A DNA stretch of 64,000 bases, taken from sequence record MK817115.1. One strand, 5' to 3'. A model generated the notes under the pieces. That model ran no database searches. It had not been told where the DNA came from and saw only the letters and a list, made by a program, of their open reading frames with translations. This document shows positions 1 through 52,651 of this stretch, one piece after another (positions within the stretch are counted from its first letter, which is position 1; each line of letters starts with the position of its first letter). The stretch comes from Escherichia phage vB_EcoM_phAPEC6. Both the position numbers and the translations under genes were made by a program.

Positions 1-714
1 AATTGCTGATTGACCTTCGTACACAAATAATACGTCTGCATCATCATATAGATAATCACCGATGCATAGATTTTGTGGGAGCAAATGCTCAATCAAGCTT
101 TTGGAAATGTAATGATACAAACGACGACCAACTTGTTCGGATTGAATATTAGTATTGGTTAAGTTGCTGTATACTTCCCAAAAATTGATTTCCAAATGGT
201 GTTGACCAATGTGAATCAAATCACTATCACCAATAACAATATCATGGCGATAATCTTGTACCTCGACACCATAACTTAGTGCTTTGATACGCATGTTGAT
301 ATCACGAGTTACCAGTACTGATTCTGTTGCTAAAGCTACCAGAATGATTTTATCATCAGGTACTGTGCTTTTGAGAAGGGTTTGAACTTTCTCTTCTGAA
401 CCTTTAGTACGAATTAGTGCTTCAGCTTCTTCGTTTGTAATAACAAACAATTTGCTATCAGGATTCATATTGGTATGAACATCAGCAATATTAACACCAG
501 TACTACTAATCTCATCATGTGATGCATCTGCAATAATTGCTTCAATGTTACGAATAGCAACACGAGCATCGCGTGAAACATCTACATTACGACTCTTAAT
601 TGAATCCAATTCTTCCAGTACTGTAAATGGTAGAATGATTGCAGCACCATCAAAAGCAATAGATGCATTAGGGTCAGATAGTAGTACGTTTGTGTCAATT
701 GTATATTTTTTCAT
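1..714 (-). CDS. PIN-domain N-terminus of a PhoH-like (YlaK/PhoH2-type) protein; 3' end truncated by window edge
   Basis: Own translation from ATG at 714: MKKYTIDTNVLLSDPNASIAFDGAAIILPFTVLEELD...; frame open to position 1; not in ORF track because truncated. Confidence 0.55.
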   Translation of the reverse strand, partial: MKKYTIDTNVLLSDPNASIAFDGAAIILPFTVLEELDSIKSRNVDVSRDARVAIRNIEAIIADASHDEISSTGVNIADVHTNMNPDSKLFVITNEEAEALIRTKGSEEKVQTLLKSTVPDDKIILVALATESVLVTRDINMRIKALSYGVEVQDYRHDIVIGDSDLIHIGQHHLEINFWEVYSNLTNTNIQSEQVGRRLYHYISKSLIEHLLPQNLCIGDYLYDDADVLFVYEGQSAI

Positions 715-774: not shown

Positions 775-1077
775 TTACATATTTGGTTCGTATTCAACAT
801 AGCAACGTGAACCTCGAACCTTTTCTTCCCAGCACTCCTGGTAAACAAGTTGACCAATTGAAACTGGTTCTCTTGATAGTCCATTACGTACTTCACCATT
901 TTGGGTTTTATACATAAATGAACATTTGGACTCGCTACATTGTCCTAAACTAACAACTTCTGCGGTATTGTAGTGAATGTTGGTACGCTTAGTGTTCTCG
1001 TGATACTGTCCGAACCAAAGAACTCCTGCACCTAACAGAACAGTACAAATAAGACTTTTGATGTGTGTTTGAATCAT
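775..1077 (-). CDS. small membrane-anchored protein (N-terminal hydrophobic segment)
   Basis: ORF track; ATGA overlap with upstream gene stop at 1074. Confidence 0.5.
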   Translation of the reverse strand: MIQTHIKSLICTVLLGAGVLWFGQYHENTKRTNIHYNTAEVVSLGQCSESKCSFMYKTQNGEVRNGLSREPVSIGQLVYQECWEEKVRGSRCYVEYEPNM

Positions 1078-1394
1078 AATGAGTTAAATCCATTGTTTAA
1101 GTATGTTTCAATATTAATTTTACCAACAGGATTACTACTGTGAACAAAGTACTCAAACGGTTCTTTAATATTATTATCAAACATATAATCAATAAGAAAC
1201 TTAGCAAAAGAATATCCAGTCTTTTCGTCTTCGCTCACATCACCCAAGTCATGGTCGAATGATACAAATGCTGGAATTCCATTTTCAATAACATATTCAC
1301 ATGCACTTTTAAAGTCACGACATACCACCATATCTTGGTTTGGATAATATAGATTTGCATCACGAATATCATCCAAAAACATTGAGTAAGACAT
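1074..1394 (-). CDS. hypothetical protein, possible receiver (REC)-like domain
   Basis: MFLDDIRD...VSFDHDLG...VHSSNPVG pattern resembles receiver-like domains seen with RNA-repair genes; weak by-eye call. Confidence 0.3.
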   Translation of the reverse strand: MSYSMFLDDIRDANLYYPNQDMVVCRDFKSACEYVIENGIPAFVSFDHDLGDVSEDEKTGYSFAKFLIDYMFDNNIKEPFEYFVHSSNPVGKINIETYLNNGFNSL

Positions 1395-1403
1395 GTTAAA
1401 CTC

Positions 1404-1955
1404 CTATAGATAACTAATTAGTAAGTTTTCTTTTTGAACCAGATACTCCAATTCTTGTCTTGCTGTACCGATGAAGTTCTGTGTCATAAGATTATTATAT
1501 CCCGCTTCTCGATTTTGTCCCTTAGAATAACGAGAAATATGACATAAATTTACACCAGCAACTTCTGCACTTGCATGTTTAGCATTAGTGTATCCATCTC
1601 TAATGTGTTTCAACTCGTCATAGGTTACTTCATAGCTAAAACTGTGACTGTTTGCACCTGGGTAAATTTCAAAAGTTTTGAGTGGTCGAAGATGGGAAAC
1701 AAAAATATTGTAATCCATTTCTTCTTGAACTTCACGACGCAACGCATCTTCTAGTGAGATATCAGTACTTTCTACGGTTCCACCACATCCACCAAGAAGA
1801 CCATCCCATCGTAATTGCAGTAATACTAAATTTACTTCTGGTATATCATTCAACTCATAGTTTTTGTAAGGGTTGCATTTTCTTGCAAAGAAATAACAAA
1901 ATACAAAATTTGCACGTGTGCCATATTCACCAAAGGGAACTTCTTTAACACTCAT
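1404..1955 (-). CDS. Nudix hydrolase
   Basis: Nudix box GGCGGTVESTDISLEDALRREVQEEMD (Gx5Ex7REUxEExGU pattern); ATGA overlap with Sir2 stop. Confidence 0.6.
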   Translation of the reverse strand: MSVKEVPFGEYGTRANFVFCYFFARKCNPYKNYELNDIPEVNLVLLQLRWDGLLGGCGGTVESTDISLEDALRREVQEEMDYNIFVSHLRPLKTFEIYPGANSHSFSYEVTYDELKHIRDGYTNAKHASAEVAGVNLCHISRYSKGQNREAGYNNLMTQNFIGTARQELEYLVQKENLLISYL

Positions 1956-2710
1956 TTCATACGTTCCTTAATTATAGTCTCTAGATGCGGTATTGCTTTG
2001 GTTGCTGGCTTGATAACTTTTTCATTAAACAAAAAATCATTATCATTTTTACGAATGTTAACATTAACACTATAACATGGTAATGCTGCTGCTAATCTCG
2101 ACCATACCAGTACTGTATCGCTACTACCAATTACAATAACTGTATCATTTTCATTAAGAGATTTCAACACATTATTTCGTTCTTCGTAAATTGGTAAGCG
2201 AATACCATCAACATAACGATGATATTCTCCAATCATTACTACATTTGGTTTAGCAAAAACATCATGTTTTGGTATGTATGGTTCGTATCCGCAGTTAATA
2301 ACATTATAATCATCGGAATTGATACTATAATTTTCAATAACTTCGCACAAGTTTCCATGAAGTTTAAGCTCATGACCACCAATACGAGTATAAAGATCGT
2401 CCATGTTAGAAGTCATATGAAGGAAGCAATCACCATATTGATCTTCTAACGATTTTATAAAATAATGCATTGCATTCGGTTCGCATTGTCCCAATTTTAC
2501 ACGTAATGTATTATAGAAAGAATGAACAACATGATATTTTGTAGTTAAACTAGCAATGTTACATACATCATTAATTTTAAATGTATCCCACAAACCATCA
2601 TCAAATCGAAAAGGTTCCATACCACTTTCAACAGAAAGTCCTGCACCTGATATAATCAGTAATCGCTTTTTACCTTCATTGCTTATAAATTTTTCTGATA
2701 TCATATTCAA
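1952..2710 (-). CDS. Sir2-family protein (NAD-dependent deacylase / NADase-like)
   Basis: ISGAGLSVESGMEPFRFDDGLWD matches sirtuin GAGIS..SGIPTFR motif; LHGNLCE matches catalytic HG region. Confidence 0.6.
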   Translation of the reverse strand: MNMISEKFISNEGKKRLLIISGAGLSVESGMEPFRFDDGLWDTFKINDVCNIASLTTKYHVVHSFYNTLRVKLGQCEPNAMHYFIKSLEDQYGDCFLHMTSNMDDLYTRIGGHELKLHGNLCEVIENYSINSDDYNVINCGYEPYIPKHDVFAKPNVVMIGEYHRYVDGIRLPIYEERNNVLKSLNENDTVIVIGSSDTVLVWSRLAAALPCYSVNVNIRKNDNDFLFNEKVIKPATKAIPHLETIIKERMK

Positions 2711-2907
2711 TCCTTATAAAAAACAATTAAATATATTGATAATAACAGAATGATTCCAATATGATAGGCATACATAAAATTATTATCTTTGTGATAACCA
2801 TTGGATTTCAAGTCCCTATATAAGCATTTAGCATTGTTATAAATTACAACAATAGAAAAAACTATAAAAAAACTCAAAACCCATTCATAAATTGTGTATG
2901 CCATCAT
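2707..2907 (-). CDS. small membrane protein
   Basis: Two hydrophobic segments; overlaps upstream stop. Confidence 0.45.
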   Translation of the reverse strand: MMAYTIYEWVLSFFIVFSIVVIYNNAKCLYRDLKSNGYHKDNNFMYAYHIGIILLLSIYLIVFYKD

Positions 2908-2934
2908 CTATTCTCTCTTATAATATTAGTACTT

Positions 2935-3528
2935 TTAATATTTTAAAACATCAAACTCTTCGCTTACGCTTGTTACATTATCACTAACAATTTTAAAAAT
3001 TGATTTGATACGTTCGTGTAGTGGTTTTTTAGATTCGTTCTCAACTTCAATATATGCTTGCATTGCTGCAATTGCATGATATGTCCCACTACCTACTGCG
3101 GTAATTCTTGTTTTAGGTTGTAGTACTGAAAAGTCTTCTTGAACTTCATAGATTGTATGATTGTGGAGAATGATAAATTGTCCACCTCCTACATCTTGTG
3201 ATGCATCTCGTGCACCCCATTCTTCTTTAAACATTTGACGAATAATTGGAATAACTTTAAGAACCAAATATTGTGAAAATGTTTGACTAGCATCTTGTTC
3301 AGGTAAATTAAGGTTATAATTTAACAACTGACCCATACGAAATGATGTAGTATAACCCAATGCCATTACTTCTTTAGTTCTAGTTAGTCCATCATCATGT
3401 AACTTGATAAATTCTTTCTCGAATACCTTTGGCTCAGTTTGAACAGTTTTTGTAAATCCATTGCTTCCTAACTTATCCCCAGCAATAAAAGAACTTACTC
3501 CGTCAGTGTGTGCAATAATACAGGTCAT
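2935..3528 (-). CDS. HslV/proteasome-beta-like Ntn-hydrolase peptidase
   Basis: After Met, TCIIAHTDGVSSFIAGD (N-terminal Thr nucleophile) and AVGSGTYHAIAAMQAY vs HslV AIGSGGPYAQAAARA; start set at ATG 3528 (track start 3597 is over-extended); ATGA overlap with 3525..3785. Confidence 0.6.
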   Translation of the reverse strand: MTCIIAHTDGVSSFIAGDKLGSNGFTKTVQTEPKVFEKEFIKLHDDGLTRTKEVMALGYTTSFRMGQLLNYNLNLPEQDASQTFSQYLVLKVIPIIRQMFKEEWGARDASQDVGGGQFIILHNHTIYEVQEDFSVLQPKTRITAVGSGTYHAIAAMQAYIEVENESKKPLHERIKSIFKIVSDNVTSVSEEFDVLKY

Positions 3529-3785
3529 AAAATAGCTCCAATTGCAAATAATGTTGTGTATAAGATATAAATTAGTGCTCCTAACAACATTAGGCACACC
3601 AAGTATGAAGTTGATAGTACATAATAAATTATTGCTTCGAATTTTGAATTGAACTTCATTGTAGTTGAATCAATAAAGCCATTACGATAATCTTTGTAAA
3701 TGAAAACTGTTAGAAAAATAACTGTAGCATACATTACTACAGTAGCATAAAAAATAATAGATGTCAAGTTTTGGATGTTTGTCAT
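3525..3785 (-). CDS. small integral membrane protein
   Basis: Hydrophobic throughout; ORF track. Confidence 0.5.
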   Translation of the reverse strand: MTNIQNLTSIIFYATVVMYATVIFLTVFIYKDYRNGFIDSTTMKFNSKFEAIIYYVLSTSYLVCLMLLGALIYILYTTLFAIGAIL

Positions 3786-3855
3786 AGTTATATAATCTCA
3801 ATATAATTAATAACAAAGGAAGTACATCATAATCATCCTGTTATTTTAATTATTT

Positions 3856-4464
3856 TTATTGTTTGACTGAACCGTAAAAAACCAGTTCTGGTTTTGTTAA
3901 TATTACAACATCTTCACCACGAGAACGACTAACTCTAAATAGAACTTCTGGTGGGATTCCATTTGCTGCATATAGTGAAAAAAGGAAACCTACCTTTGTT
4001 GCCATTTCTTCGGTAAAAGTTGATAACTGTCTTACAGACACAAATGAATTATCACCATCAGTAACATTACTTTTAATCGAAATGTTATGAAGACCCAGTA
4101 CTGAGCGATTTGTCATATATCGCTTTTCGGGAGATACACTAAAGAATACCACAGTACATGCTGAATTGCAATACCTAGAAACAATTAAATTTATCCCATT
4201 GTCTCTAACAAAGTTTGCCATTCGAATACCTGCATCAAAATCACCACCAGGAGATGTAATTGTGATGGTATCATAGTGTTCTTTATCATACAACTCTATC
4301 ATACGCTTGAGTGACCCATCTGTAATATCTGATATGAAATATACATTTCGGGTTTCAGGATTATACTTTATCACATTTTTACTTTCAATACCAGCACTGG
4401 CTGGAAAATTTATTAACAATAGAAACATTGCTGCTTGTATCACTTCAAGCCATAGTCTTTTCAT
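3856..4464 (-). CDS. secreted Clp-protease-fold (S14/S49-like) protein
   Basis: Signal-peptide-like MKRLWLEVIQAAMFLLLINFPASAG; TSPGGDFDAGIRMANFV...CNSACTVVFF resembles ClpP SPGG/AASMG region; track start 4479 is a TTG, ATG at 4464 has a GAGGA RBS. Confidence 0.45.
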   Translation of the reverse strand: MKRLWLEVIQAAMFLLLINFPASAGIESKNVIKYNPETRNVYFISDITDGSLKRMIELYDKEHYDTITITSPGGDFDAGIRMANFVRDNGINLIVSRYCNSACTVVFFSVSPEKRYMTNRSVLGLHNISIKSNVTDGDNSFVSVRQLSTFTEEMATKVGFLFSLYAANGIPPEVLFRVSRSRGEDVVILTKPELVFYGSVKQ

Positions 4465-4499
4465 ATAACAAGTCCTCAATTTTGTTTAGGAAGATATAA

Positions 4500-4528
4500 A
4501 TAATATAGTACTTAAACACTTAAGTCAA
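4500..4528 (-). promoter_or_regulatory. sigma70-like promoter (-35 TTGACT, 17-nt spacer, -10 TATTAT) upstream of 3856..4464
   Basis: Minus-strand reading of 4500-4528. Confidence 0.35.
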
Positions 4529-4689
4529 ACTTTTTCTGTACTTAACTCAAATTTTTAAAAATAAAACTTAAGGTGTACAGTTTATAACAGATCATATCAT
4601 ACCACTGATGTTTTGTCAACTAGTTCATGGTGCATCTGATGTAAAAAACAAATATATTTCATACTTATATTTAAAAAAGGAAATAAAAT

Positions 4690-5067
4690 ATGAAAGCTAT
4701 CGCAGCACAAGGTAAACTACCATTCAATATCGGCGGGTTTTGTGTAACCGCAGCTAATATAAACGGTGAATTGAAATATAACTTGAACATCTTTAATCAA
4801 CGTTCTAGTTGTGTTTACGATCTCATTGATACTGATTTTAATGTTTATCGTTTTGTAACTATCACTAGTTATGATAAAGATAAAATTAGATTAGATGCAT
4901 CTAAAACAGCATTGGAAATTGCACCAACTCTAGCCAAAAATACTTTTTGTATTAAGATTGACGATAGTGCATTTGCTGAATCATTCCAGTTTCATAAAAT
5001 TAAATTGAGTACTGGGGCGATGAAATATCACCCTTGGGATTTGTATTATTGCAACCTCCCAGGTTAA
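4690..5067 (+). CDS. hypothetical protein (only convincing plus-strand gene)
   Basis: Strong RBS AAAAAAGGAAATAAAAT-ATG; ends at bidirectional terminator. Confidence 0.6.
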   Translation: MKAIAAQGKLPFNIGGFCVTAANINGELKYNLNIFNQRSSCVYDLIDTDFNVYRFVTITSYDKDKIRLDASKTALEIAPTLAKNTFCIKIDDSAFAESFQFHKIKLSTGAMKYHPWDLYYCNLPG

Positions 5068-5097: not shown

Positions 5098-5353
5098 ATT
5101 CTACAGTATTAAGCTTCTGACAAATCATATCAGCTTCTACTCGGTCTTTATAATAAATGGTAAATCCAAATCTACTTGTTACCCTTTTCTCACTACGGTG
5201 TATACAGTTTACAATATAGTACTTATTATTTTGTGCAGAAAAACGAACTTCATAATTTCGAAAAGAAGTATTAGGTTCATCCATAGCAACTATATATAAC
5301 ATAAAAATAAAAAACACTGTTATTAGAAAAGCAATAATAATTATTACTGTCAT
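5096..5353 (-). CDS. small membrane-anchored protein
   Basis: N-terminal TM helix MTVIIIIAFLITVFFIFMLYIVA. Confidence 0.5.
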   Translation of the reverse strand: MTVIIIIAFLITVFFIFMLYIVAMDEPNTSFRNYEVRFSAQNNKYYIVNCIHRSEKRVTSRFGFTIYYKDRVEADMICQKLNTVE

Positions 5354-5829
5354 TTATCAAGACCCTTATCATAAATGCAATTAACAATAATTCCAGCATC
5401 TTCCAGTACTTTAATAGCTTCTGGTGGTGTACGAGGATAATTTTTGAGATAAATTACACGTGAAATCCCACTACCTGCGATCAACTTAGAACAAGTATAA
5501 CATGGTTGTAGTGTTGTGTAAAGAGTAGCACCTTGACGTTCAGTAGGAGAACTATAGAGTAAAGCGTTCATTTCAGCATGGATTTCATGAATATTACTCC
5601 ACTCATGATGTTCATGCTTTGCTTCATCACTAACCCAGTCTTGAAAACGTCCATCATTGACTAAGTGTTGATTCACATCACAACAATTTGGTTGTTTTGA
5701 TGGAGTACCATTGTATCCAGTACTCAATACTCGGTTATTTTTAACAATAACACAACCAACTTTTTGTGAAATACATTTACTTTCCTCAGCAACTACTTCT
5801 GCTATCTTCAACCAAGTCGTATGTTTCAT
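5350..5829 (-). CDS. cd: dCMP deaminase
   Basis: HAEMNAL and PCYTCSKLI zinc motifs; N-terminus MKHTTWLKIAEVVAEESKC aligns with T4 Cd MKASTVLQIAYLVSQESKC; track start 5841 probably 4 codons too long. Confidence 0.85.
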   Translation of the reverse strand: MKHTTWLKIAEVVAEESKCISQKVGCVIVKNNRVLSTGYNGTPSKQPNCCDVNQHLVNDGRFQDWVSDEAKHEHHEWSNIHEIHAEMNALLYSSPTERQGATLYTTLQPCYTCSKLIAGSGISRVIYLKNYPRTPPEAIKVLEDAGIIVNCIYDKGLDK

Positions 5830-6310
5830 TATAAGCTCCAATACTTAACAATGCGTTTTTACACAAATCATGAATTTTCATAACTCGAATATAGTTTAAC
5901 ACATCTGTTTCATTAATTTCAAATGGTTTATCTGCATATGTGGACCACGTTTGATTTAATTCAATAACAAATGTAATTTTATCTGTATCCATAATATTAT
6001 CACAAAATCTACGAAAATCTTGCTCTTCATCGGAAAGTCTGAAATTTAAATCATTTTTTAAACCATTAACTGTGAAGCAAATACCAGTACTGTAACCGAT
6101 GCAAATATCTTCAATATCATATAATCCATAAATTAATTTAGAGATAAACGTGCTATATTTGTTTCTATGATAATAGTTTAATATTTCTTGTTTAATATTA
6201 ATTTCAATATCAGTAGTTTTTTGTAATGTAAGTTTAATTAATTCTAATGTCTTGATTATGTTATCTAACCAGATATTAGTATCATCTATACTTAGGTGTG
6301 TGTATTTCAT
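5786..6310 (-). CDS. hypothetical protein
   Basis: ORF track; tight packing. Confidence 0.45.
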   Translation of the reverse strand: MKYTHLSIDDTNIWLDNIIKTLELIKLTLQKTTDIEINIKQEILNYYHRNKYSTFISKLIYGLYDIEDICIGYSTGICFTVNGLKNDLNFRLSDEEQDFRRFCDNIMDTDKITFVIELNQTWSTYADKPFEINETDVLNYIRVMKIHDLCKNALLSIGAYNETYDLVEDSRSSC

Positions 6311-10116: not shown

Positions 10117-11535
10117 TTAGCCAAGTGATTCAATGATACTGTTTGAGAACACCTCAACAGCACTATCACGAATTTCTAAAATACGAGTATAGTCGTCACA
10201 AGTGTTTTTGTCAAATCTAAATTCAATAAACACTGGTAAGAACAGTGATGGCTCACCAGTACGCTTGTCGAATACAATGTCATTACACTCAACTGTAACC
10301 ACTTTACCAATAAGTTCTTGCATTCTTTCCCAAATGGTTTTAAATGTCCATTCAGCATCTTTCTCTTTGATACCAGTACCCACATTAACTTTCAATGAAC
10401 CACAAGCACTTTCCAGTTGTAAAGAACCTAGGCTTCCTTTACGTTTACCTTCACCTTCATTGAAACCAACAATACGCAAGTCTAGTTGCATTTTCAATTT
10501 CATTTTCAACTGCTTCGGAGAAGTGTGAGATTTCCAGATACCATCTTCACATTTCAGTACTGAACCCTCTTCACCTTCGTTCATTAGTTCACTATTGTAC
10601 TCAAATGCTTCTTTGATGTTTAGAACTTTACGGAATCCAACCATACGAACAAAATCACTATTGAGTTCGTTAATTGCATCTACTAAGATCTCGCGACGTT
10701 CTTTACGTTTTACATCCCATACACCTTCACAAAATGCATCATATGGAACAACATCCCATAGAACGAATACAGTACGCATTGCTTCATTCTGACTGATGCT
10801 ATCTTTACCAGCTTTCTGAATTATACCGTTGCCAGTAGTGCGTGGGAGAATGGTTTCCCCATCATTGTCCAGTACTACACCTTCCCCCATAAAGACCACA
10901 CCACTACTAAAACGTTCATCTTTACTTTGGATGATGTGAGCAAGACCTGCCATCTCACCATCACGACAACCCAGGAAGTCGTATAGTTTACCATTACGGG
11001 ATGTAGAAGTTAATGAACCATTAATAACAACGTGGTTCAAGTACTGACCATCCATTTTCACTTCTGATATAGCGTAACCATAATCTTTGAAGTTGATGTT
11101 CTTTGCAGTCTTTTTGTCAATCAAAGAACAACGCATATATGGTTCGTCTTTAATAAAGCCTTTACCAAATACATCATTGCAGTTCTTTTCTTGAATACCA
11201 CAATCAAGGTTTTTAGTAAGCATTTTACGGAGAACTTCCTGATCATCTTCAGATACAGAACCCAGTACTGAAGCAATGAAATCACGCCCCGCATTTCCTG
11301 TCACATCACGCTTGTAAATGCATTCTAGCTTATCAATTGCTTCATCTAACGTCATATGTTGATATACGTCATCAGCGGCAGGGAGCTTCTTATAGCCACT
11401 AACGATAGAAGGGTCTAGAGTATATTTCAGTACTTTTTGTAAAGTTACATTATCTTTATTTTGTTCAAGAATAGCTTTTTTGCCTAGTGTACTGCTAGTA
11501 TTTTTAATGCTTTCAAGAATTGCTAAAATGCTCAT
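10117..11535 (-). CDS. ATP-dependent DNA ligase (T4 gp30-like)
   Basis: EVKMDGQ (KxDG adenylation motif); N-terminus MSILAILESIKNTSSTLGKKAILEQNKDN aligns with T4 ligase MILKILNEIASIGSTKQKQAILEKNKDN. Confidence 0.9.
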   Translation of the reverse strand: MSILAILESIKNTSSTLGKKAILEQNKDNVTLQKVLKYTLDPSIVSGYKKLPAADDVYQHMTLDEAIDKLECIYKRDVTGNAGRDFIASVLGSVSEDDQEVLRKMLTKNLDCGIQEKNCNDVFGKGFIKDEPYMRCSLIDKKTAKNINFKDYGYAISEVKMDGQYLNHVVINGSLTSTSRNGKLYDFLGCRDGEMAGLAHIIQSKDERFSSGVVFMGEGVVLDNDGETILPRTTGNGIIQKAGKDSISQNEAMRTVFVLWDVVPYDAFCEGVWDVKRKERREILVDAINELNSDFVRMVGFRKVLNIKEAFEYNSELMNEGEEGSVLKCEDGIWKSHTSPKQLKMKLKMQLDLRIVGFNEGEGKRKGSLGSLQLESACGSLKVNVGTGIKEKDAEWTFKTIWERMQELIGKVVTVECNDIVFDKRTGEPSLFLPVFIEFRFDKNTCDDYTRILEIRDSAVEVFSNSIIESLG

Positions 11536-11546: not shown

Positions 11547-12749
11547 TTATAGATAATACTTTCCAATATAAAGTGGATTACTAATTGATAGTTGAACGTG
11601 ACACGGCTTATCTTGGTAGTAACGAGAACTTGATGTTTTGCGTTCATTTGGTGGGAAGAATGGGGAACGATAGCCATTCCATGTACTAAATGATGAGTGT
11701 TCATTAATATCAACATCCATTACCATAATCCCATTATCATCAATTTGAACTGGATATGCACTAAAGCGTTCAAATTTATCATTATAATGGATATTATAAT
11801 CTCCACTACGCCCATAATAACTACGCGTTGTATTATTACTTACACCAAAAAATACGCGATATGTTTGTTCATTATCTTTAGTCATAAATGGTACGTTCTC
11901 GTTGAAACGTCCATTATTCATAAGATCATCAACATTTATTTCTTCATATTTAATTTTTAGGTCTTTTGCTTTAAATGATTTATTGTGTACCAGTACTGGA
12001 ATGTTAGATTCACCTAATGGGTTATGTCTGTTTGTTCTATAGCTTTGCCAAAAATCATTAGCAAGTTTAATTTCTTCATCTGCCGTAGTCTTCTTATTCA
12101 AGAGTGCACGAGGTTCCAGATTGTAATTATCCAAACGTTGATTCAATGCATAAGTTCCACGAGTACTGTTGAAAAGTAAATGATAAACAGAACTTTTGTC
12201 GGGGTATGCAAATTCTTTAGTTTTCTTTATACAAATTGCATGAACTTTACCGCAGTAATAGTAATCTTCTTTGAGATAAGTGAAACCATCACCAACTTTA
12301 AGACCTGCTACAGTTTCTTTTTGTTGTTCTTTTTTATTTTCTTTTTCAACTAACTTAGCAAACGTTTTTGTTTTACCATTAATTAATTCTAAGTTATTGT
12401 TGAAAAACATTGGGTCTACAAAAACACCTTTGATTATATCGTTATTGATAATTAAATCATTCATGTTTTTGGCACTAATCATAAATTCAAATCCTTCTGG
12501 GTGACGGATCGTGAAATATGTTTCTCGTGCATGAGTTGTTAATTTATCAACTACACAAAATCCCGTAGTTGGAACGTTGTCAATATATAACGATGGAAGA
12601 TTGTTCTTCTTTGCCCAGTACTCTGCTCTCTCTTTCTTTGTTTCAAACGCTTTTGTATGTGATTTTGTTGCATCGATAATAAAACCATCAACTTGGTTGT
12701 GGTTTACATAGGAACGTGCAACAAATAACTTCTCTGGAAAATCCATCAA
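11547..12749 (-). CDS. hypothetical protein (400 aa)
   Basis: ORF track; no recognised motif. Confidence 0.5.
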   Translation of the reverse strand: MMDFPEKLFVARSYVNHNQVDGFIIDATKSHTKAFETKKERAEYWAKKNNLPSLYIDNVPTTGFCVVDKLTTHARETYFTIRHPEGFEFMISAKNMNDLIINNDIIKGVFVDPMFFNNNLELINGKTKTFAKLVEKENKKEQQKETVAGLKVGDGFTYLKEDYYYCGKVHAICIKKTKEFAYPDKSSVYHLLFNSTRGTYALNQRLDNYNLEPRALLNKKTTADEEIKLANDFWQSYRTNRHNPLGESNIPVLVHNKSFKAKDLKIKYEEINVDDLMNNGRFNENVPFMTKDNEQTYRVFFGVSNNTTRSYYGRSGDYNIHYNDKFERFSAYPVQIDDNGIMVMDVDINEHSSFSTWNGYRSPFFPPNERKTSSSRYYQDKPCHVQLSISNPLYIGKYYL

Positions 12750-13165
12750 ATAGTCCTCATTGTGCTGATTGCTTTTAATGTGTCAAACAATGCACCATAT
12801 TTTACTTGCATTAGTTGATCACCAGCAGGAAGATTCATACGCATAACAGCCATGTCTTCAATCATTTCAGACGTACACAGTACTGCTACACAGGTAATAG
12901 CATCATTCAATCCAGCTTCATTGAATTTGGCAAACGGAACTTTTCCCTGTTTGCTAAGGTTGTTATAATAAGAATTTAACTTATCATGTCCACCAGCATT
13001 TAGTACTACAATAGTTTCGTGTTCATAGTACCATTCATCAATAATAGTACTGAAAGCAGTACCTTCATATTCTTTAATTAGTTTAACACCAGCATGGAAT
13101 GCTTGAATACCAGCTTGGACACCTTGGCAGTACATATTAGTTAAACAATACAATTTCATTTCCAT
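12746..13165 (-). CDS. hypothetical protein
   Basis: ORF track; ATGA-type coupling. Confidence 0.5.
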   Translation of the reverse strand: MEMKLYCLTNMYCQGVQAGIQAFHAGVKLIKEYEGTAFSTIIDEWYYEHETIVVLNAGGHDKLNSYYNNLSKQGKVPFAKFNEAGLNDAITCVAVLCTSEMIEDMAVMRMNLPAGDQLMQVKYGALFDTLKAISTMRTI

Positions 13166-17822: not shown

Positions 17823-18755
17823 TTAGAAATTTCCTTCTGCAACTTGAAAAACTTTCAAGCCAAGTAGCTTACGCCACATGAATACGACTTGTGTTCGGTC
17901 ATCATATACCTTTTTAACATCGTAATGATCAACCACATTTTTCATGTACAGGTCGAATTTTACAACATCATCAGGACGTTTATCATCGATATCTCGCATA
18001 AACAATGCATCGTAAGGAACACCCCAATTCTTAAGCCACTGTTCGGTATCCGCACGACACCCTTCAGTACGCCCACTCATGACGATAATCTTGCGTTTAT
18101 GAAAAACTGCTTCAGCGATAATAGACAAAATAACTTCTTCATCAGGTGTATCCTGAAGAACAGTACTTTCATCGTAAGGATTACGACCCCATTTATGAGC
18201 AAGAGTTCCATCGATATCAACGATGATAGCAGCTTCGCGTGAATTACCATAGTAACCAATGTGTAATGCTTTACTATAATAGTACGTATCTGCCATTTTG
18301 TCAATGATATCATCTGGTACTGAACGCTCACGCTGGAGGTTATATTTCTTACAAAGTTTTACGAACTCTTTAATCTTAAAGAATTCATGAACATCTGCAC
18401 CACGGTCTTCATTAGGTACAAAATCATCATAGAAGTTCTTTTCTTTGTAATCATAACCATTATCTGTAGCCCATACTTTCCAGAGATTACGGAAATGTGG
18501 TTTAAGGTTTGTATCGGATACTATGATGTTCCAACCATTCTCTGCTGCTGAATTTGCTGCACTGAACTGTAAATTATCTACGTACTGCTCATTAGCATCG
18601 TTGAATTTGTAAGCATCATGTGACCCAGCCATAGATTCACGAATATCATCACGGTTGATGTTGATAGTCTTGGATTTGGCTTTTTTAATCTCTTGCACTG
18701 CCCATGTAGTTTTACCACACCCAGGCAATCCAACTGTTAGTGTGATAGTTGGCAT
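17823..18755 (-). CDS. pseT: polynucleotide 5'-kinase / 3'-phosphatase (T4 Pnk-like)
   Basis: Walker A GLPGCGKTT; phosphatase DIDGTLA; C-terminus DDRTQVVFMWRKLLGLKVFQVAEGNF aligns with T4 Pnk [25 protein letters not shown]. Confidence 0.9.
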   Translation of the reverse strand: MPTITLTVGLPGCGKTTWAVQEIKKAKSKTININRDDIRESMAGSHDAYKFNDANEQYVDNLQFSAANSAAENGWNIIVSDTNLKPHFRNLWKVWATDNGYDYKEKNFYDDFVPNEDRGADVHEFFKIKEFVKLCKKYNLQRERSVPDDIIDKMADTYYYSKALHIGYYGNSREAAIIVDIDGTLAHKWGRNPYDESTVLQDTPDEEVILSIIAEAVFHKRKIIVMSGRTEGCRADTEQWLKNWGVPYDALFMRDIDDKRPDDVVKFDLYMKNVVDHYDVKKVYDDRTQVVFMWRKLLGLKVFQVAEGNF

Positions 18756-19578: not shown

Positions 19579-20721
19579 CTAAAAATCCTTTAGTACAATT
19601 TTCATGTATTTTATAAGAGTCTCTTTGTAATCAACTTTCTTATTGTTATACATTGCAAAGGCCAAGCCCTGACGATTCAGTTCATTAGTTAAACACTCCT
19701 GAACCTTCATTGCGAATTCCTTTCGCTCCAAGTGCTTGTGTTCCTTGACGAAGCTTTCTACTTCATCTTGTAATGCATTATAGCACGAAAATACCAATTG
19801 TTCCATTCTTAATATCTTTTGCATAGCATATTCATCAGTACTGAACAATTGTTTTAAATCATCACTTGAACCATTTAATACTGCTTCATATAAATGAGAA
19901 TCAATAATAATACTATCTTTTGTAAGATGTAATGAACTGTACCAGTCAGTCTTTATTTTACACATTGTCCCATTATTTAGGATGCACACAAAACCCTCAA
20001 TATCAAGCATTTTATGAACTTCCTCCACGCTTTCACGGAAGGTATTTCGTACCGGAAAAGTGTGATGAATATCTTTTCCAGTCATATTAGTACTGTACTG
20101 TGCAAGACATGGAAACTTATCACGTAGTGCTTTACCACATAGCAACTCACCACTCACACGATGACGAACGTTCAGTACAAACAGTTGTTCTACCTGATAT
20201 GGTAATACAATTCGGTACTCTGGGCTTGTATACTCCATATTAACTGTGTAACCTAAACGTTCCGCTTCGTCGATGTACTGATACAAATTCTGGTTCTCGT
20301 TAATAAGTCGAGTACTGTTAATCGCATGGTCAGAATACAATGCAGTATGTGATTTACAACGAATCTCACCATCATTATCACGGTAAGTACTGATAATCGA
20401 ACCATCCAACTTAGGCATCACTACCGCAATGTCATCGCATGTGGTGTTAGCAGGGAACATTGTAGCAGGATTCTCGTAAGCATTGAAGAACTTTTTCATT
20501 GTACGTGCTGCACAACGTATCATTTCACCTTCTTCATCAATTTCCCACATAGAGCCACGGGTTTCCAACGCATTTGGTTGCATGAAATCAGTGTATGATG
20601 CTAGACGATAACTGAATACACGATACGTGCCACCAGCAGGACTTTTATGATCCACATAAAAGAATGCATCGTTTGTATTACATAAGTGCATTAAATCTTC
20701 ATATATTTGCAAAAGGGTCAT
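19579..20721 (-). CDS. rnlA: RNA ligase 1 (T4 Rnl1/gp63-like)
   Basis: TYRVFSYRLASYTDF and MPKLDGS (KxDG) align with T4 Rnl1 TYRIFSYNYASYSDW / TKEDGS; similar length. Confidence 0.9.
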   Translation of the reverse strand: MTLLQIYEDLMHLCNTNDAFFYVDHKSPAGGTYRVFSYRLASYTDFMQPNALETRGSMWEIDEEGEMIRCAARTMKKFFNAYENPATMFPANTTCDDIAVVMPKLDGSIISTYRDNDGEIRCKSHTALYSDHAINSTRLINENQNLYQYIDEAERLGYTVNMEYTSPEYRIVLPYQVEQLFVLNVRHRVSGELLCGKALRDKFPCLAQYSTNMTGKDIHHTFPVRNTFRESVEEVHKMLDIEGFVCILNNGTMCKIKTDWYSSLHLTKDSIIIDSHLYEAVLNGSSDDLKQLFSTDEYAMQKILRMEQLVFSCYNALQDEVESFVKEHKHLERKEFAMKVQECLTNELNRQGLAFAMYNNKKVDYKETLIKYMKIVLKDF

Positions 20722-24669: not shown

Positions 24670-24862
24670 GAACACGCTCACAATTAAGGCAATAAATGCA
24701 CTCAATGTCAGGTCGCCATGATTTATCAAAATCTTTGTGCTGTTCTTCGGTGTATTCTGCATCATCATTAATAGGGAAGAAATCACCAGCACCAGTCGCC
24801 CAGTCTGAATCTAAACGGAAACGAGCTAATTGAGTACTGTTACAATATGGACATTTATTCAA
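24662..24862 (-). CDS. small zinc-ribbon protein
   Basis: CPYCNS ... CIYCLNC. Confidence 0.45.
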   Translation of the reverse strand: MNKCPYCNSTQLARFRLDSDWATGAGDFFPINDDAEYTEEQHKDFDKSWRPDIECIYCLNCERVHD

Positions 24863-25139
24863 AATTTATTCCTTCTAACTGATATACGTTTAATGAAAAT
24901 GACCCATTATTATTATCGCATCTGAAACACAGTGTTAAAGAACCATTAAAACTAACAACATCAGTACATATACATTTTTCACCATTGGATATGATAGATT
25001 TTCCTATATATAAATCTCTTACTATAGTACGGTAATGTTGCCATAAAAAATAATACACACTTTCATAGTACTCATCTTTTACATATGACAAGTATAAGAA
25101 TTTATAAAATACTTGTATTTCCTTTAAGTTGTTTTTCAT
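24855..25139 (-). CDS. small helix+beta family protein (family C, DIQFTYK subgroup)
   Basis: LKEIQVFYKFLYLSY ... DLYIGKSII. Confidence 0.5.
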   Translation of the reverse strand: MKNNLKEIQVFYKFLYLSYVKDEYYESVYYFLWQHYRTIVRDLYIGKSIISNGEKCICTDVVSFNGSLTLCFRCDNNNGSFSLNVYQLEGINFE

Positions 25140-25413
25140 TCTCCAACTCCAGTAAATTTACACCAATCCAATCAACATCACTATCAGTACTTAATTCCAA
25201 TCGTAGCTTACCGCTATGACTAACAATATCGCGGAATTTGTATATTTTATTATCACGAACTATACACAAATCATGGTAATATTCATGTAATTCATCCAAA
25301 AACTTTATCCATACCGAACGATAGATTTCACCGTAGAGATATTCTCCAGCATCAACCGTAGCGTATTGGATATACAAAAATTTGTATGTGAATTGTATAT
25401 CATTTAATAACAT
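25102..25413 (-). CDS. small helix+beta family protein (family C, DIQFTYK subgroup)
   Basis: MLLNDIQFTYKFLYIQY. Confidence 0.5.
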   Translation of the reverse strand: MLLNDIQFTYKFLYIQYATVDAGEYLYGEIYRSVWIKFLDELHEYYHDLCIVRDNKIYKFRDIVSHSGKLRLELSTDSDVDWIGVNLLELENEKQLKGNTSIL

Positions 25414-25423
25414 ATGTAACCTC

Positions 25424-25735
25424 TTATAAATTCACCAACTTCACAACTTTAATCTCGATAAATCCCCTATCGGTTATTTCAAGAAATTCAACATGGATAA
25501 TCCCATTGTATGATTTAACTCCAGAGAACTCGAATATATCATTTCCGTCGATAAAAGTACTGTAATTCTTTTTTATATATTCACCTACTGAATCTAAGTA
25601 CTCAATATATAAATCAATAAATGGTTGTTCTTTGTATGGGTTATGTGAACCTATTTTGTTACTAACAAGGTATACATCATACAAATCATATAGGATCTTA
25701 TAAGTGAATTGTATATCATTTAAATTTAATCCCAA
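25424..25735 (-). CDS. small helix+beta family protein (family C, DIQFTYK subgroup)
   Basis: LNDIQFTYKILYDLY. Confidence 0.5.
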   Translation of the reverse strand: MGLNLNDIQFTYKILYDLYDVYLVSNKIGSHNPYKEQPFIDLYIEYLDSVGEYIKKNYSTFIDGNDIFEFSGVKSYNGIIHVEFLEITDRGFIEIKVVKLVNL

Positions 25736-25992
25736 GGGAATATCTCCAACGGAATACTGGTAAATCCAAAATCAGTGTAGTACTGAACCTCAACTTTACC
25801 ATCACGTCTAATGATTATATCAGAAAATTCTGCATGGTCATCACCAATAATAACAGTACTGAATTTTTTTTTAATCTTACCACGAATTGTATGAATCATT
25901 TCAGTGCATGTGTCTTCTAGACTAGGGCTATCATTGTCGTGTGCTAAATCTCGAATAATCTTGTATGTTAGTAGGAAATCTTTATAATTCAT
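25726..25992 (-). CDS. small helix+beta family protein (family C, DIQFTYK subgroup)
   Basis: MNYKDFLLTYKIIRDL. Confidence 0.5.
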   Translation of the reverse strand: MNYKDFLLTYKIIRDLAHDNDSPSLEDTCTEMIHTIRGKIKKKFSTVIIGDDHAEFSDIIIRRDGKVEVQYYTDFGFTSIPLEIFPWD

Positions 25993-27479: not shown

Positions 27480-27481
27480 AA

Positions 27482-28015
27482 TTATTTCCTCATGTATTTT
27501 ATAACGTCTTCAAATAATTGTATTTTTAAGTCCTCGTCATTTCCAGGTAAAAACTCACGAAAACTATCAAAATCTTCATTTTTTGCGAAGTTACGCATTT
27601 GTGTTGAGCTATATTGACTTACATTACGGTCAATACCTGCCTGAATTGCTTTTATACTACAAAAATTATACAACTTACCATTGTACATGTCAAGAGTTTT
27701 TTGAAAAGAATCAATACGGTCAGAACCACAAATGAAAAGAACATCTAAGTACTTTCCATCCAGTTCTCTCATTATATCAAATAGATTGTCTTCTGTGTAG
27801 ATGTTCTCTTGCACTGAAGGATAGAATCCCTCTGTATAATACATTTTTAGTTCAGGTGGGAGTGGGTTTTTTATATTGTCAGTACTGGTGCTTAGATATA
27901 TTTTTAAATCAGCATTGTACTGTTCTTGTAATGTTTTGGCCTTTTCAAAAACTAAACCATGTCCACGATGTACAGGATTAATACGACCAAACGTTAATAC
28001 ACATGTTTCTTTCAT
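27482..28015 (-). CDS. cytidylyltransferase-like nucleotidyltransferase (NMN/NaMN adenylyltransferase-like)
   Basis: FGRINPVHRGH (HxGH) and SQYSSTQMR (ISSTxxR-like) motifs. Confidence 0.5.
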   Translation of the reverse strand: MKETCVLTFGRINPVHRGHGLVFEKAKTLQEQYNADLKIYLSTSTDNIKNPLPPELKMYYTEGFYPSVQENIYTEDNLFDIMRELDGKYLDVLFICGSDRIDSFQKTLDMYNGKLYNFCSIKAIQAGIDRNVSQYSSTQMRNFAKNEDFDSFREFLPGNDEDLKIQLFEDVIKYMRK

Positions 28016-28533
28016 AAATTCTTCATCACCAACCCAAGAGATTTAAGATAATTGATTTTAGCAGTGGTTAAGTACTTATCCAGTACTATCAGACACGAAG
28101 GAAATGGTGCTGAATCTGTTTTCTTATCGGGTTCTTCTGGTATACCAAATCGTAATCTTCCCTTAATAAAACAAATACAATCACATATTTTAGCAGCATA
28201 ATCCTGAAAAGCAATTGTGTCGGTTCTTGAGGGTACAAGAATAACTACAGTTGCCCCGTTATTATATGCATCTACTGCTTTAGATAACCAAGTTTTCAAG
28301 TCACTGTATGGTGGATTCAACCAAACTATATTATTTCCCCAATCCTGTGATAGTGAATCATCTTCTGGAGTGAAAAAATTATCACACAATGCAGTCTCAT
28401 CAACACAAGCAGCATCAAGTGTAAATCCCCATAACTCATCCAAATCTTCAAAGAAATCTTTGGGAGTTGTCCAGTTATCTTTTCCAGTACTGAAATGTAC
28501 TGAATGTTTTTTCGAAGCATCCTTCTTCGACAT
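28012..28533 (-). CDS. phage Dam-family DNA N6-adenine methyltransferase
   Basis: WTTP, FTLDAA, WLNPPYS, LVPSRTDT, GRLRF motifs. Confidence 0.75.
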   Translation of the reverse strand: MSKKDASKKHSVHFSTGKDNWTTPKDFFEDLDELWGFTLDAACVDETALCDNFFTPEDDSLSQDWGNNIVWLNPPYSDLKTWLSKAVDAYNNGATVVILVPSRTDTIAFQDYAAKICDCICFIKGRLRFGIPEEPDKKTDSAPFPSCLIVLDKYLTTAKINYLKSLGLVMKNL

Positions 28534-28549
28534 TATATAATTCCTTTTG

Positions 28550-44471: not shown

Positions 44472-44530
44472 TGTGTTATAACCCTTTACAATTAATATAA
44501 AGGGATTATATCACAAAAAATCGGTGGGTG

Positions 44531-46124: not shown

Positions 46125-46129
46125 TTGTT

Positions 46130-51064: not shown

Positions 51065-51065
51065 T

Positions 51066-52650: not shown

Positions 52651-52651
52651 A

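What the first reader, a model, noticed from the sequence alone, without database searches (positions are those of the whole stretch)
1404..2710. NAD-handling gene set: Sir2 and Nudix operon, plus NMNAT-like enzyme 25 kb away
Sir2-family (1952..2710) and Nudix (1404..1955) genes are translationally coupled (ATGA overlap), and an HxGH/SSTxxR nucleotidyltransferase resembling NMN adenylyltransferases lies at 27482..28015. Phage NAD+ salvage or reconstitution pathways are known to counter NAD-depleting defences, and Sir2 domains are themselves NADases or deacylases. I found no phosphoribosyltransferase (Nampt-like) candidate, so the pathway may be incomplete or non-canonical.
Basis: partly seen in the sequence, partly recalled or inferred. 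Interest (0 to 1): 0.65.

Follow-up and report, generated by a model that had tools for sequence, protein, structure and literature searches.

The report
Phage sirtuin–Nudix–cREC NAD-consuming module
The Sir2 and Nudix genes are real, but they belong to a jumbo-phage gene module, already predicted in the literature, that spends NAD+ (probably to clean up damaged RNA ends) rather than making it. This phage has no NAD+ synthesis pathway, and the distant "NMNAT-like" gene is an unrelated enzyme of unknown substrate.

Summary
The window comes from an Asteriusvirus-type jumbo coliphage (G17/121Q group). It encodes a CobB-like sirtuin (2704..1952, minus strand) whose stop overlaps (ATGA) the start of a NUDT16-like Nudix gene (1955..1404). 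An HxGH/SxxxxR nucleotidyltransferase lies at 28015..27482.

The NAD+ salvage reading does not hold for this phage.
Iyer et al. 2022 already described this module computationally as a predicted NAD+-using RNA-repair system.
- In Nudix-lacking phage lineages (rV5-like, T5-like) the same sirtuin clade also sits beside RNA-repair domains: an RNA ligase plus cREC, or HAD_SAK_2.
- In sister jumbo genera, genuine NadV+NatV salvage genes lie directly upstream of Sir2. Here that slot holds proteases, and a near-identical 352-kb genome has no NadV or NatV.
- The distant transferase belongs to a separate, uncharacterised family. It sits in cyanophage replication modules and coexists with NatV in relatives. 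Only its ATP-binding half resembles NadM.

Verdict: a known kind of system with no experimentally tested function. Moderate interest.

The parts
1952..2704 (-). Sirtuin (Sir2), 250 aa. CobB/class III-like catalytic core without the zinc-binding cysteines. It is the NAD+-consuming enzyme of the module.
   Evidence: Pfam SIR2 3.7e-20, PHROG 2162 2e-77. E. coli CobB E=3e-22. AF2 pLDDT 91.7; Foldseek best match is CobB, TM 0.77-0.86. GAGxSxxSG, N100, D102 and H116-G117 are invariant, while the CobB Zn cysteines and the VYPA motif are not conserved.
1404..1955 (-). NUDT16-like Nudix hydrolase, 183 aa. Its start overlaps the Sir2 stop (ATGA).
   Evidence: Pfam Nudt16-like 7e-19; PHROG 9999 5e-90. 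Human NUDT16/X29 E~1e-12, with the R74-E75-x2-E78-E79 box and NUDT16-type spacing. Fused to cREC in phage CBB.
1074..1394 (-). cREC, a receiver-like domain predicted to process cyclic phosphates, 106 aa.
   Evidence: Pfam PF20274 cREC_REC 1.5e-22, 80.5 bits against a cut-off of 27. Orthologues in RaK2 and in the CBB fusion. Described in PMC7824862 and PMC9503650.
775..1077 (-). Small conserved protein (100 aa, annotated as a membrane protein in relatives) between cREC and PIN-PhoH.
   Evidence: 41% identical to CBB_122. The same position is occupied in 121Q, RaK2 and the metagenomic contigs. No Pfam hit.
1..714 (-). N-terminal part of a PIN-PhoH (PhoH2/YlaK-type) protein, cut by the window start. 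A predicted RNA helicase/nuclease.
   Evidence: Translation from 714 reads MKKYTIDTNVLL...VLEELD. 59% identical to CBB_123, which is annotated PIN_4 + PhoH. PIN_4 + PhoH occupy the same position in L027-L029.
2707..2907 (-). 66-aa hydrophobic ORF directly upstream of Sir2. Membership of the module is uncertain.
   Evidence: ORF list; no family hit.
2935..4479 (-). HslV-like peptidase (3597..2935), an 86-aa ORF and a ClpP-like protease (4479..3856). Context only. In sister genera, NatV and NadV lie in this slot between the protease and Sir2; the protease itself is retained in RaK2.
   Evidence: PHROG 1040 and 26024. Synteny with CBB, RaK2 and 121Q.
27482..28015 (-). Standalone HIGH-motif nucleotidyltransferase, 177 aa, substrate unknown. 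Not part of the Sir2 module. Its start overlaps the stop of the Dam methyltransferase gene (28533..28012).
17823..18755 (-). T4 Pnkp-type polynucleotide kinase/phosphatase. A possible functional partner in RNA repair, about 15 kb away on the same strand.
   Evidence: Pfam HAD_PNKP 1.6e-43 plus AAA_33 2.9e-13.
19579..20721 (-). T4 Rnl1-type RNA ligase. A possible functional partner in RNA repair.
   Evidence: Pfam RNA_lig_T4_1 1e-15 plus T4_Rnl1_C 6.6e-17.

Best explanation
Sir2 and Nudix are the first two genes of a conserved jumbo-phage module: Sir2, NUDT16-like Nudix, cREC, a small membrane protein and PIN-PhoH. The module spends NAD+ rather than making it.

The mechanism I commit to is inferred, not shown:
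1. The zinc-less, CobB-like sirtuin uses NAD+ to ADP-ribosylate a terminal or 2' phosphate on damaged RNA, as Tpt1/KptA does. [quoted passage not shown]
2. The NUDT16-like Nudix cleaves the pyrophosphate of that by-product, or of an ADPr-RNA adduct, giving AMP.
3. cREC opens the cyclic phosphate.
4. PIN-PhoH supplies RNA unwinding and trimming.
5. The phage's T4-type Pnkp and Rnl1, 15-18 kb away, can finish and seal the ends.

In sister genera NadV+NatV lie directly upstream and would rebuild NAD+ from the released nicotinamide. This phage lacks that arm. The transferase at 27482..28015 is an unrelated enzyme of unknown substrate.

What is shown: domain identities, intact catalytic residues, conserved gene order, the Nudix-cREC fusion, and the absence of NadV and NatV. 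What is inferred: the substrate and every chemical step.

My estimates: about 0.85 that this is the Iyer-type NAD+-consuming module and not a salvage pathway; about 0.4 that RNA ends are the substrate.
For: - The same gene order occurs in 121Q, CBB, RaK2 and three metagenomic contigs whose Sir2 is only 47-63% identical.
- Nudix and cREC are fused in CBB_121.
- In Nudix-lacking lineages, the sirtuin clade also sits beside RNA-repair domains. In rV5-like FFH2 the order is RNA_lig_T4_1, cREC, Sir2. In T5-like NBEco002, Sir2 is followed (one small ORF between) by HAD_SAK_2. In contig L028 an Acb1/2H gene overlaps the Sir2 start.
- These are the contexts described in PMC9503650 section 3.7.3.
- The NAD+-binding and catalytic residues of Sir2 are invariant. 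The Zn cysteines and the VYPA stretch of CobB are not conserved, and the clade has its own invariant residues.
- NUDT16 relatives bind RNA (PDB names X29 a U8 snoRNA-binding protein; their decapping and ADPr-conjugate activities are from my own knowledge).
- Pnkp and Rnl1 are encoded in the same window.
- NadV and NatV are absent.
Against: - No sirtuin is known to act on nucleic-acid phosphates. The published proposal is purely computational, and my literature searches found no experiment.
- The closest characterised relatives are lysine deacylases (CobB, SIRT5), and the FGE loop is retained.
- T4-type Pnkp/Rnl1 repair leaves no 2'-phosphate, so a Tpt1-like step is not obviously needed.
- PIN nucleases depend on metal and do not make cyclic phosphates.
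- Adjacency to NadV/NatV and, in one contig, to an Acb1-like gene fits a counter-defence island equally well.
- Pnkp and Rnl1 are 15 kb away, not adjacent.
Confidence: 0.4

Rival explanations
1. The sirtuin is a CobB-like protein lysine deacylase, or a protein mono-ADP-ribosyltransferase, that reprogrammes host or phage proteins. The Nudix hydrolyses the O-acyl-ADP-ribose by-product or trims protein-linked ADP-ribose, as NUDT16 does.
For: Best sequence and structure matches are E. coli CobB (E=3e-22; TM 0.77-0.86, 28% identity), then Sir2Af and SIRT5. NCBIfam deacylase models give weak hits. All catalytic residues and the FGE loop are kept. That O-acyl-ADPr and protein-ADPr are Nudix/NUDT16 substrates is my own knowledge.
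Against: The zinc ribbon cysteines and the VYPA stretch are lost across the clade, and the R95-equivalent residue for acidic acyl groups is absent in the jumbo clade. All NCBIfam scores are far below the equivalog cut-offs (93 against 318). This reading does not explain the conserved linkage to cREC, PIN-PhoH, RNA ligase, HAD_SAK_2 and 2H.
Confidence: 0.25
2. Counter-defence island acting on small molecules. The Nudix and cREC destroy ADPR-derived or cyclic-nucleotide immune signals, or recycle ADPR made by host NADases. Sir2 modulates or detoxifies NAD-derived molecules. In relatives the module works alongside NadV/NatV (NARP2).
For: The module lies directly downstream of NadV/NatV in CBB, RaK2 and L027-L029, and next to an Acb1-like 2H gene in L028. 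NARP2 is an experimentally shown counter-defence (citing Osterman et al.). Iyer et al. argue that phage Nudix and cREC target soluble ADPr derivatives.
Against: A sirtuin consumes NAD+, which works against NAD-depleting defences. No PADLOC or anti-defence family hit. This phage keeps the module after losing NadV/NatV, so the module works without them. The RNA-repair neighbours in rV5-like and T5-like phages are left unexplained.
Confidence: 0.2
3. One reading: a non-canonical NAD+ salvage or reconstitution set in which the distant transferase is an NMN adenylyltransferase working with Sir2 and Nudix.
Against: - No NadV or NatV in the window or in a near-identical 352-kb genome.
- No PRTase, PRPP-synthase, PnuC or RNK domain reached E<=0.001 in the window-wide Pfam scans.
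- The transferase scores below the Pfam and TIGR NMNAT cut-offs, whereas RaK2 NatV scores 44.6 bits.
- The substrate-binding half does not align, and the NatV NMN-loop residues D78/Y79/W85 have no conserved counterpart.
- Foldseek ranks PPAT first.
- The family coexists with NatV in Muenster, 7t3 and XaC1, and lies in UvsX/gp41/RNase H modules in marine phages.
- A 25-kb separation in a 350-kb genome is not linkage.
Confidence: 0.07

Closest known systems
Sirtuin-centred NAD+-utilising RNA-repair neighbourhood, configuration 1 (Serratia phage BF; Iyer, Burroughs, Anantharaman & Aravind 2022, Viruses 14:1977, section 3.7.3)
   Same: [quoted passage not shown] I reproduced the gene order independently.
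   Different: Here Nudix and cREC are separate genes, whereas they are fused in BF and CBB. No 2H gene is adjacent. NadV and NatV are missing from their upstream slot. The published function is a prediction only.
NARP2 / KVP40-type NAD+ salvage (NadV Nampt + NatV NMNAT-Nudix)
   Same: Lies directly upstream of the same Sir2 module in CBB, GAP32, BF, RaK2 and the metagenomic relatives. It deals with the same metabolites (nicotinamide, ADPR).
   Different: Neither enzyme is present in this phage. The window's Nudix belongs to the NUDT16 family, not the NatV ADPR-pyrophosphatase domain. The standalone transferase resembles NatV only in its ATP-binding half.
E. coli CobB / human SIRT5 (class III sirtuin deacylases)
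   Same: Same fold (TM up to 0.86) and the GAGxS, N, D, H and FGE catalytic and NAD-binding motifs.
   Different: No Zn-binding cysteines, no VYPA stretch, no R95 equivalent, and clade-specific invariant residues (W39, DVCNI, H61, GY140, W201). A 17-residue insert follows the FGE loop in the jumbo clade.
NUDT16 / X29 (U8 snoRNA-decapping Nudix; also acts on ADP-ribose conjugates)
   Same: Pfam Nudt16-like above the cut-off. Same extended Nudix box (G-x5-E-x11-RE-x2-EE) and the SLED motif.
   Different: About 25-30% identity. Among phages it is confined to Rak2-like jumbo phages plus a few Aeromonas phages (74 records). Its substrate is untested.
Tpt1/KptA RNA 2'-phosphotransferase
   Same: Proposed functional analogue: NAD+-dependent ADP-ribosylation of an RNA phosphate that yields Appr>p.
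   Different: Unrelated fold (ART, not Rossmann sirtuin). The analogy is an inference with no biochemical support.
NadM-type NMN adenylyltransferases (2QJT, 1F9A) and PPAT/CoaD
   Same: The transferase shares the HIGH-superfamily fold, the (H/T)xGH motif and the SxxxxR motif.
   Different: 13-18% identity and below family cut-offs. Its own invariant motifs are GSDR and YNG. Its genomic context is different.

Membership tests
Sirtuin (Sir2) superfamily, PF02146 | Profile score above the curated cut-off | tested here: met
   73.1 bits against 24.
Sirtuin (Sir2) superfamily, PF02146 | NAD+-binding GAGxSxxSG motif, the catalytic Asn/Asp (TQNID-type) and the catalytic His | tested here: met
   G20, G22, S27, G28, N100, D102 and H116-G117 are invariant in 27 homologues and align to CobB H147.
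Canonical deacylase sirtuins (CobB, Sir2Tm, SIRT1-7) | Four-cysteine zinc ribbon in the small domain | tested here: not met
   The columns of CobB C155, C174, C176 and C177 are K/T/L/V or unaligned in the phage clade. The window protein has two non-conserved Cys.
Canonical deacylase sirtuins (CobB, Sir2Tm, SIRT1-7) | NCBIfam equivalog score for CobB or NAD-dependent deacylase | tested here: not met
   Best score 93 bits against a cut-off of 318.
Canonical deacylase sirtuins (CobB, Sir2Tm, SIRT1-7) | Lysine deacylase activity | not testable with these tools
   Needs biochemistry.
Defence-type Sir2 NADases (ThsA, DSR, Sir2-HerA) | Match to PADLOC defence models, or partner domains (SLOG, HerA, etc.) | tested here: not met
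   No PADLOC hit. Structural neighbours are CobB, Sir2Af and SIRT5.
NUDT16-like Nudix, PF22327 | Profile above the cut-off and an intact REx2EE catalytic box | tested here: met
   68.8 bits against 27. R74, E75, E78 and E79 are present. Aligns to human NUDT16 over residues 38-179.
cREC, PF20274 | Profile above the cut-off; receiver-like acidic residues | tested here: met
   80.5 bits against 27. The LDD and FDHD motifs are visible in the sequence.
Iyer-type sirtuin RNA-repair neighbourhood (configuration 1) | [quoted passage not shown] | tested here: met
   Gene order 2704..<1 on the minus strand. Conserved in relatives.
Iyer-type sirtuin RNA-repair neighbourhood (configuration 1) | Adjacent 2H phosphoesterase | tested here: not met
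   No 2H or Acb1 family reached E<=0.001 in the window-wide Pfam scans. One is present in relative L028.
Iyer-type sirtuin RNA-repair neighbourhood (configuration 1) | RNA 2'-phosphate removal activity | not testable with these tools
   Prediction only; no experiment found.
NMN/NaMN adenylyltransferase (NadM, NadD, NadR, NatV) | (H/T)xGH and SxxxxR motifs of the HIGH superfamily | tested here: met
   H16-R-G-H19 and S136...R141. These motifs are shared by PPAT, GCT and FMNAT, so they are not specific.
NMN/NaMN adenylyltransferase (NadM, NadD, NadR, NatV) | Family profile score above the cut-off | tested here: not met
   TIGR00482 19.8 against 112; NF000840 15.3 against 150; PF01467 17.3 against 21. 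No PDB sequence hit.
NMN/NaMN adenylyltransferase (NadM, NadD, NadR, NatV) | Closest structural neighbours are NMNATs | tested here: inconclusive
NMN/NaMN adenylyltransferase (NadM, NadD, NadR, NatV) | NMN-binding loop (D78/Y79/W85 in KVP40 NatV) | tested here: not met
   hhalign aligns only columns 14-75 of the profile. The region after strand 3 has no conserved D, Y or W.
NARP2 (Nampt + Nmnat) | Nampt/NadV encoded by the phage | tested here: not met
   tblastn of CBB NadV gives no hit in the window, and a best E of 8.9 in the 352-kb ECO103 4-12-1 genome. No Asteriusvirus appears among the top NadV hits.
NARP1 (Adps + Namat) and NARP3 (PnuC + NadR) | PRPP-synthase-like or NAPRTase-like pair; PnuC transporter plus RNK-NMNAT | tested here: not met
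   None of these Pfam families is among those found in ORFs of at least 45 aa across the window. The whole genome was not scanned for them.

The most novel reading that the evidence does not exclude
The zinc-less phage sirtuin clade, present in about 970 phage records including T5-like, rV5-like, KVP40-like and Rak2-like phages, is a nucleic-acid-directed enzyme. It would be a sirtuin analogue of Tpt1/KptA that ADP-ribosylates RNA-end phosphates, with the NUDT16-like Nudix and cREC disposing of Appr>p or ADPr-RNA. That would be the first sirtuin shown to act on RNA, and a new NAD+-dependent branch of phage RNA repair or decapping.
Probability: 0.3. Interest if true: 0.8.

Novelty: already known. 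Interest (0 to 1): 0.38.

Why it matters
Phage sirtuins are common. This clade occurs in 974 records of the phage collection, including model T5-like and rV5-like coliphages, yet no experiment has tested what they do. This locus shows that the Sir2–Nudt16–cREC–PIN-PhoH module persists without the NadV/NatV salvage genes that flank it in sister genera. Its role is therefore separable from NAD+ resynthesis.

If the RNA-end hypothesis is right, it would extend sirtuin chemistry to nucleic acids and add an NAD+-dependent arm to phage RNA repair. If the deacylase or counter-defence readings are right, the module becomes a new host-takeover or anti-immunity tool. For the scan itself, the practical result is a correction: this is not a NARP-type pathway.

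Tried and rejected
- NadV/NatV search: tblastn of the CBB proteins against the window and a near-identical whole genome found nothing.
- PADLOC scan of Sir2, Nudix, cREC and the transferase gave no defence-system match beyond one weak Nudix hit.
- Direct sequence search of the transferase against PDB found nothing. The profile search gave only weak hits, to TmcAL-like MJ0951 (E=0.01) and NadD (E~0.5).
- Pfam on the long cyanophage-type forms of the transferase showed only DUF5824, with no informative partner domain.
- Promoter and terminator scans were at chance level (36 found against 34.8 expected). I draw no operon boundaries from them, apart from noting a strong -35/-10 match at 4619..4591 upstream of the protease gene.
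- tblastn with the rV5-type RNA ligase missed the phage's own ligase. The window-wide Pfam scan then found a T4 Rnl1-type ligase and Pnkp.
- No tRNA genes lie in the window. Seven lie elsewhere in the relative's genome.
- The supplementary tables of the jumbo-phage paper are not held.
- I considered and rejected a defence-type Sir2 NADase (structure and sequence point to CobB/SIRT5).
- I also rejected the ATGA overlap as meaningful evidence of special coupling.
Full report
**Source of the window.** The window matches jumbo coliphages of the Asteriusvirus group. Bases 1000-5000 are 100% identical to Escherichia phages vB_EcoM_G17 and Sharanji, and 93-99.8% identical to PBECO4, 121Q and others. 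Bases 26500-29500 are 100% identical to 121Q. GC content is 0.29-0.36 with negative GC skew throughout. Almost all genes lie on the minus strand.

**The observation.**
- The two ORFs exist as described.
- The upstream one is a sirtuin: Pfam SIR2 73 bits against a 24-bit cut-off, and PHROG 2162 E=2e-77. Its likely start is the ATG at 2704, which gives the 250 aa annotated in 121Q and has an AAGGA 7 nt upstream. The TTG at 2710 is less likely.
- The downstream one is a Nudix hydrolase of the NUDT16 family: PF22327 68.8 bits against 27, and human NUDT16/X29 at E about 1e-12. It has the family's extended Nudix box and an intact R74-E75-x2-E78-E79.
- The Sir2 stop and the Nudix start overlap as ATGA. 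This is ordinary here: 28 of 131 same-strand junctions in the window overlap by 4 nt.
- The third gene (28015..27482) has H16-R-G-H19 and the S136...R141 motif.

- The gene directly after the Nudix gene (1394..1074) is a cREC domain protein (PF20274, 80.5 bits).
- After cREC comes a conserved 100-aa protein, annotated as a membrane protein in relatives.
- After that comes the N-terminus of a PIN-PhoH protein, which runs off the window start.
- The unit is therefore Sir2, Nudt16-like Nudix, cREC, small protein, PIN-PhoH. This is the order of 121Q genes 476-480.

**The module is conserved and already described.**
- I found the same order in three named phages. They are Pectobacterium phage CBB, Klebsiella phage RaK2 and 121Q. 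In CBB, Nudix and cREC are fused into one 299-aa protein that is 54% identical across window 1946..1086.
- I also found it in three metagenomic contigs whose sirtuins are only 47-63% identical to this one.
- The NUDT16-like Nudix occurs in only 74 phage records. Essentially all are Rak2-like jumbo phages. It abuts Sir2 wherever both annotations are listed under the match.
- Iyer et al. [quoted passage not shown] They predict an NAD+-dependent RNA-repair role in which the sirtuin acts like KptA/Tpt1.
- I confirmed their other two configurations. In rV5-like FFH2 the order is RNA_lig_T4_1, cREC, Sir2. In T5-like NBEco002, Sir2 is followed, one small ORF later, by a HAD_SAK_2 "Swiss-army-knife RNA repair" phosphatase. 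In contig L028 an Acb1/2H phosphodiesterase gene overlaps the Sir2 start.
- My literature searches found no experimental work on these phage sirtuins.

**The sirtuin itself.**
- Homologues occur in 974 phage records: T5-like, rV5-like, KVP40-like and Rak2-like.
- The nearest characterised proteins are E. coli CobB (E=3e-22), archaeal Sir2Af and SIRT5.
- The AF2 model (pLDDT 91.7) superposes best on CobB (TM 0.77-0.86, 28% identity). There is no PADLOC defence hit.
- GAGxSxxSG, N100, D102, H116-G117 and the xGE loop are invariant, so the enzyme should bind and cleave NAD+.
- Three features differ from deacylases. The CobB zinc cysteines (C155, C174, C176, C177) are not conserved. The CobB VYPA stretch is replaced. 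The clade has its own invariant residues (W39, DVCNI, H61, G139-Y140, W201). The R95 equivalent for acidic acyl groups is absent in the jumbo clade.
- From my own knowledge, the zinc module and the VxP strand help hold peptide substrates. Their loss is weak evidence for a different macromolecular substrate.

**NAD+ synthesis is absent here but present next door in relatives.**
- In CBB the order is NatV (NMNAT-Nudix), a hypothetical gene, NadV, four more genes, then Sir2. In RaK2 it is protease, NatV, HNH, NadV, a hypothetical gene, then Sir2. Contigs L027 and L029 have NatV and NadV upstream of Sir2, and L028 has NadV.
- NadV lies 1-3.5 kb from the Nudix gene in BF, Yen9-04, 7t3 and Muenster as well.
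- In the Asteriusvirus arrangement, the stretch between the ClpP-like protease and Sir2, where RaK2 carries NatV and NadV, holds an HslV-like peptidase and small ORFs.
- tblastn with CBB NadV and NatV finds nothing in the window. It also finds nothing in the complete 352-kb genome of ECO103 4-12-1, which is 93-99% identical across the window; the best E-values are 8.9 and 4.4.
- No Asteriusvirus appears among the NadV hits down to 39% identity.
- Pfam scans of the non-overlapping ORFs of at least 45 aa returned 17 families, plus one borderline DUF (E=9e-4). None is a NAPRTase, PRPP synthase, PnuC, RNK, Macro or ART domain.
- So the lineage-level idea of an NAD gene neighbourhood is sound, but this phage keeps only the NAD+-consuming and ADPr-processing arm.

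**The distant nucleotidyltransferase.**
- It scores below every curated cut-off: PF01467 17.3 against 21, and TIGR00482 19.8 against 112. RaK2 NatV scores 44.6 on PF01467.
- It belongs to a family of about 3900 proteins, mostly from T4-like cyanophages and other marine phages. Members are standalone or form the N-terminal part of 330-720-aa proteins.
- The family's invariant residues are GRxNP, GH, S42, KNPL, GSDR and S...R.
- In marine contigs it sits among UvsX, gp41 helicase and RNase H. Here it overlaps the Dam methyltransferase gene.
- It coexists with genuine NadV/NatV in Muenster, 7t3 and XaC1.
- hhalign against NatV gives 90% probability, but only over the N-terminal ATP-binding half.
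- The NMN-binding loop residues reported for KVP40 NatV (D78, Y79, W85; PMC13464706) have no conserved counterpart.
- I conclude that it is a NadM-related HIGH nucleotidyltransferase of unknown substrate. I put its chance of being an NMNAT at roughly 15%. A 25-kb separation in a 350-kb genome is no evidence of partnership with Sir2.

**RNA-repair context in the window.** The Pfam scan also revealed a T4 Pnkp-type kinase/phosphatase (18755..17823), a T4 Rnl1-type RNA ligase (20721..19579) and a PTH2-like hydrolase (13165..12746), all on the same strand. The related genome carries seven tRNA genes elsewhere. The phage therefore invests in RNA and tRNA repair. However, T4-type healing does not itself create the 2'-phosphate that a Tpt1-like step would remove.

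**Verdict.**
- The set handles NAD+, but it is a consumer and clean-up module, not a salvage pathway. The transferase is unconnected.
- The mechanism I favour, at about 0.4, is NAD+-dependent processing of RNA-end phosphates by the sirtuin, with Nudix and cREC degrading the ADPr by-product.
- The genes are annotated in GenBank relatives and the neighbourhood is published, so the novelty is low. The biochemistry remains untested, which keeps the interest moderate.

Noticed in passing
window 17823-18755 (-) and 19579-20721 (-): A T4-type RNA repair pair: a Pnkp-like polynucleotide kinase/phosphatase (HAD_PNKP 1.6e-43 plus AAA_33) and an Rnl1-like RNA ligase (RNA_lig_T4_1 plus T4_Rnl1_C). They lie 15-18 kb from the Sir2 module on the same strand.
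   Followed up: partly
window 12746-13165 (-): A 139-aa ORF with a PTH2 peptidyl-tRNA hydrolase match (E=2e-5, 25 bits against a 23-bit cut-off). This is another translation-rescue type function near the DNA ligase.
   Followed up: no
window 2935-4479 (-): A ClpP-like protease (PHROG 26024, E=4e-119) and an HslV-like peptidase (PHROG 1040). The stretch between the protease and Sir2 is where sister genera carry NatV and NadV, so this looks like a module replacement at a fixed genomic position.
   Followed up: partly
window 42288-51557 (-), also 24855-26264, 51567-53293, 62458-63324: Tandem arrays of paralogous small ORFs with no Pfam hits: an 8-member family of 137-167-aa proteins at 42.3-51.6 kb and three 4-member families. 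The second half of the window (38-64 kb) gave only one borderline Pfam match among 62 ORFs.
   Followed up: partly
window 28012-28533 (-) and 27482-28015 (-): The Dam-type N6-adenine methyltransferase gene overlaps (ATGA) the start of the nucleotidyltransferase gene. The features listed under the matches suggest Dam adjacency in 7t3, and Dam lies 1.6 kb away in XaC1.
   Followed up: partly
L028:6622-7059 (metagenomic relative): An Acb1-like (anti-CBASS 2H phosphodiesterase) gene overlaps the start of the Sir2 gene in one relative, and a Bax1-I membrane protein sits inside the module in L027 and L028. This hints that the neighbourhood may double as a counter-defence island.
   Followed up: partly
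L015-L018 (P-SSM4, DLP_6, Paride, Melnitz): The nucleotidyltransferase domain is the N-terminal part of much longer proteins (383-722 aa) in cyanophages, a Stenotrophomonas phage and a Methylophilales phage. Their C-terminal regions are unannotated apart from DUF5824. In Pseudomonas phage Paride the next gene encodes a Kelch-repeat protein.
   Followed up: partly
window 5350-5841 (-) and 10117-11535 (-): A dCMP deaminase and an ATP-dependent (not NAD-dependent) DNA ligase, followed by a calcineurin-like phosphoesterase. The order is syntenic with CBB and 121Q.
   Followed up: no
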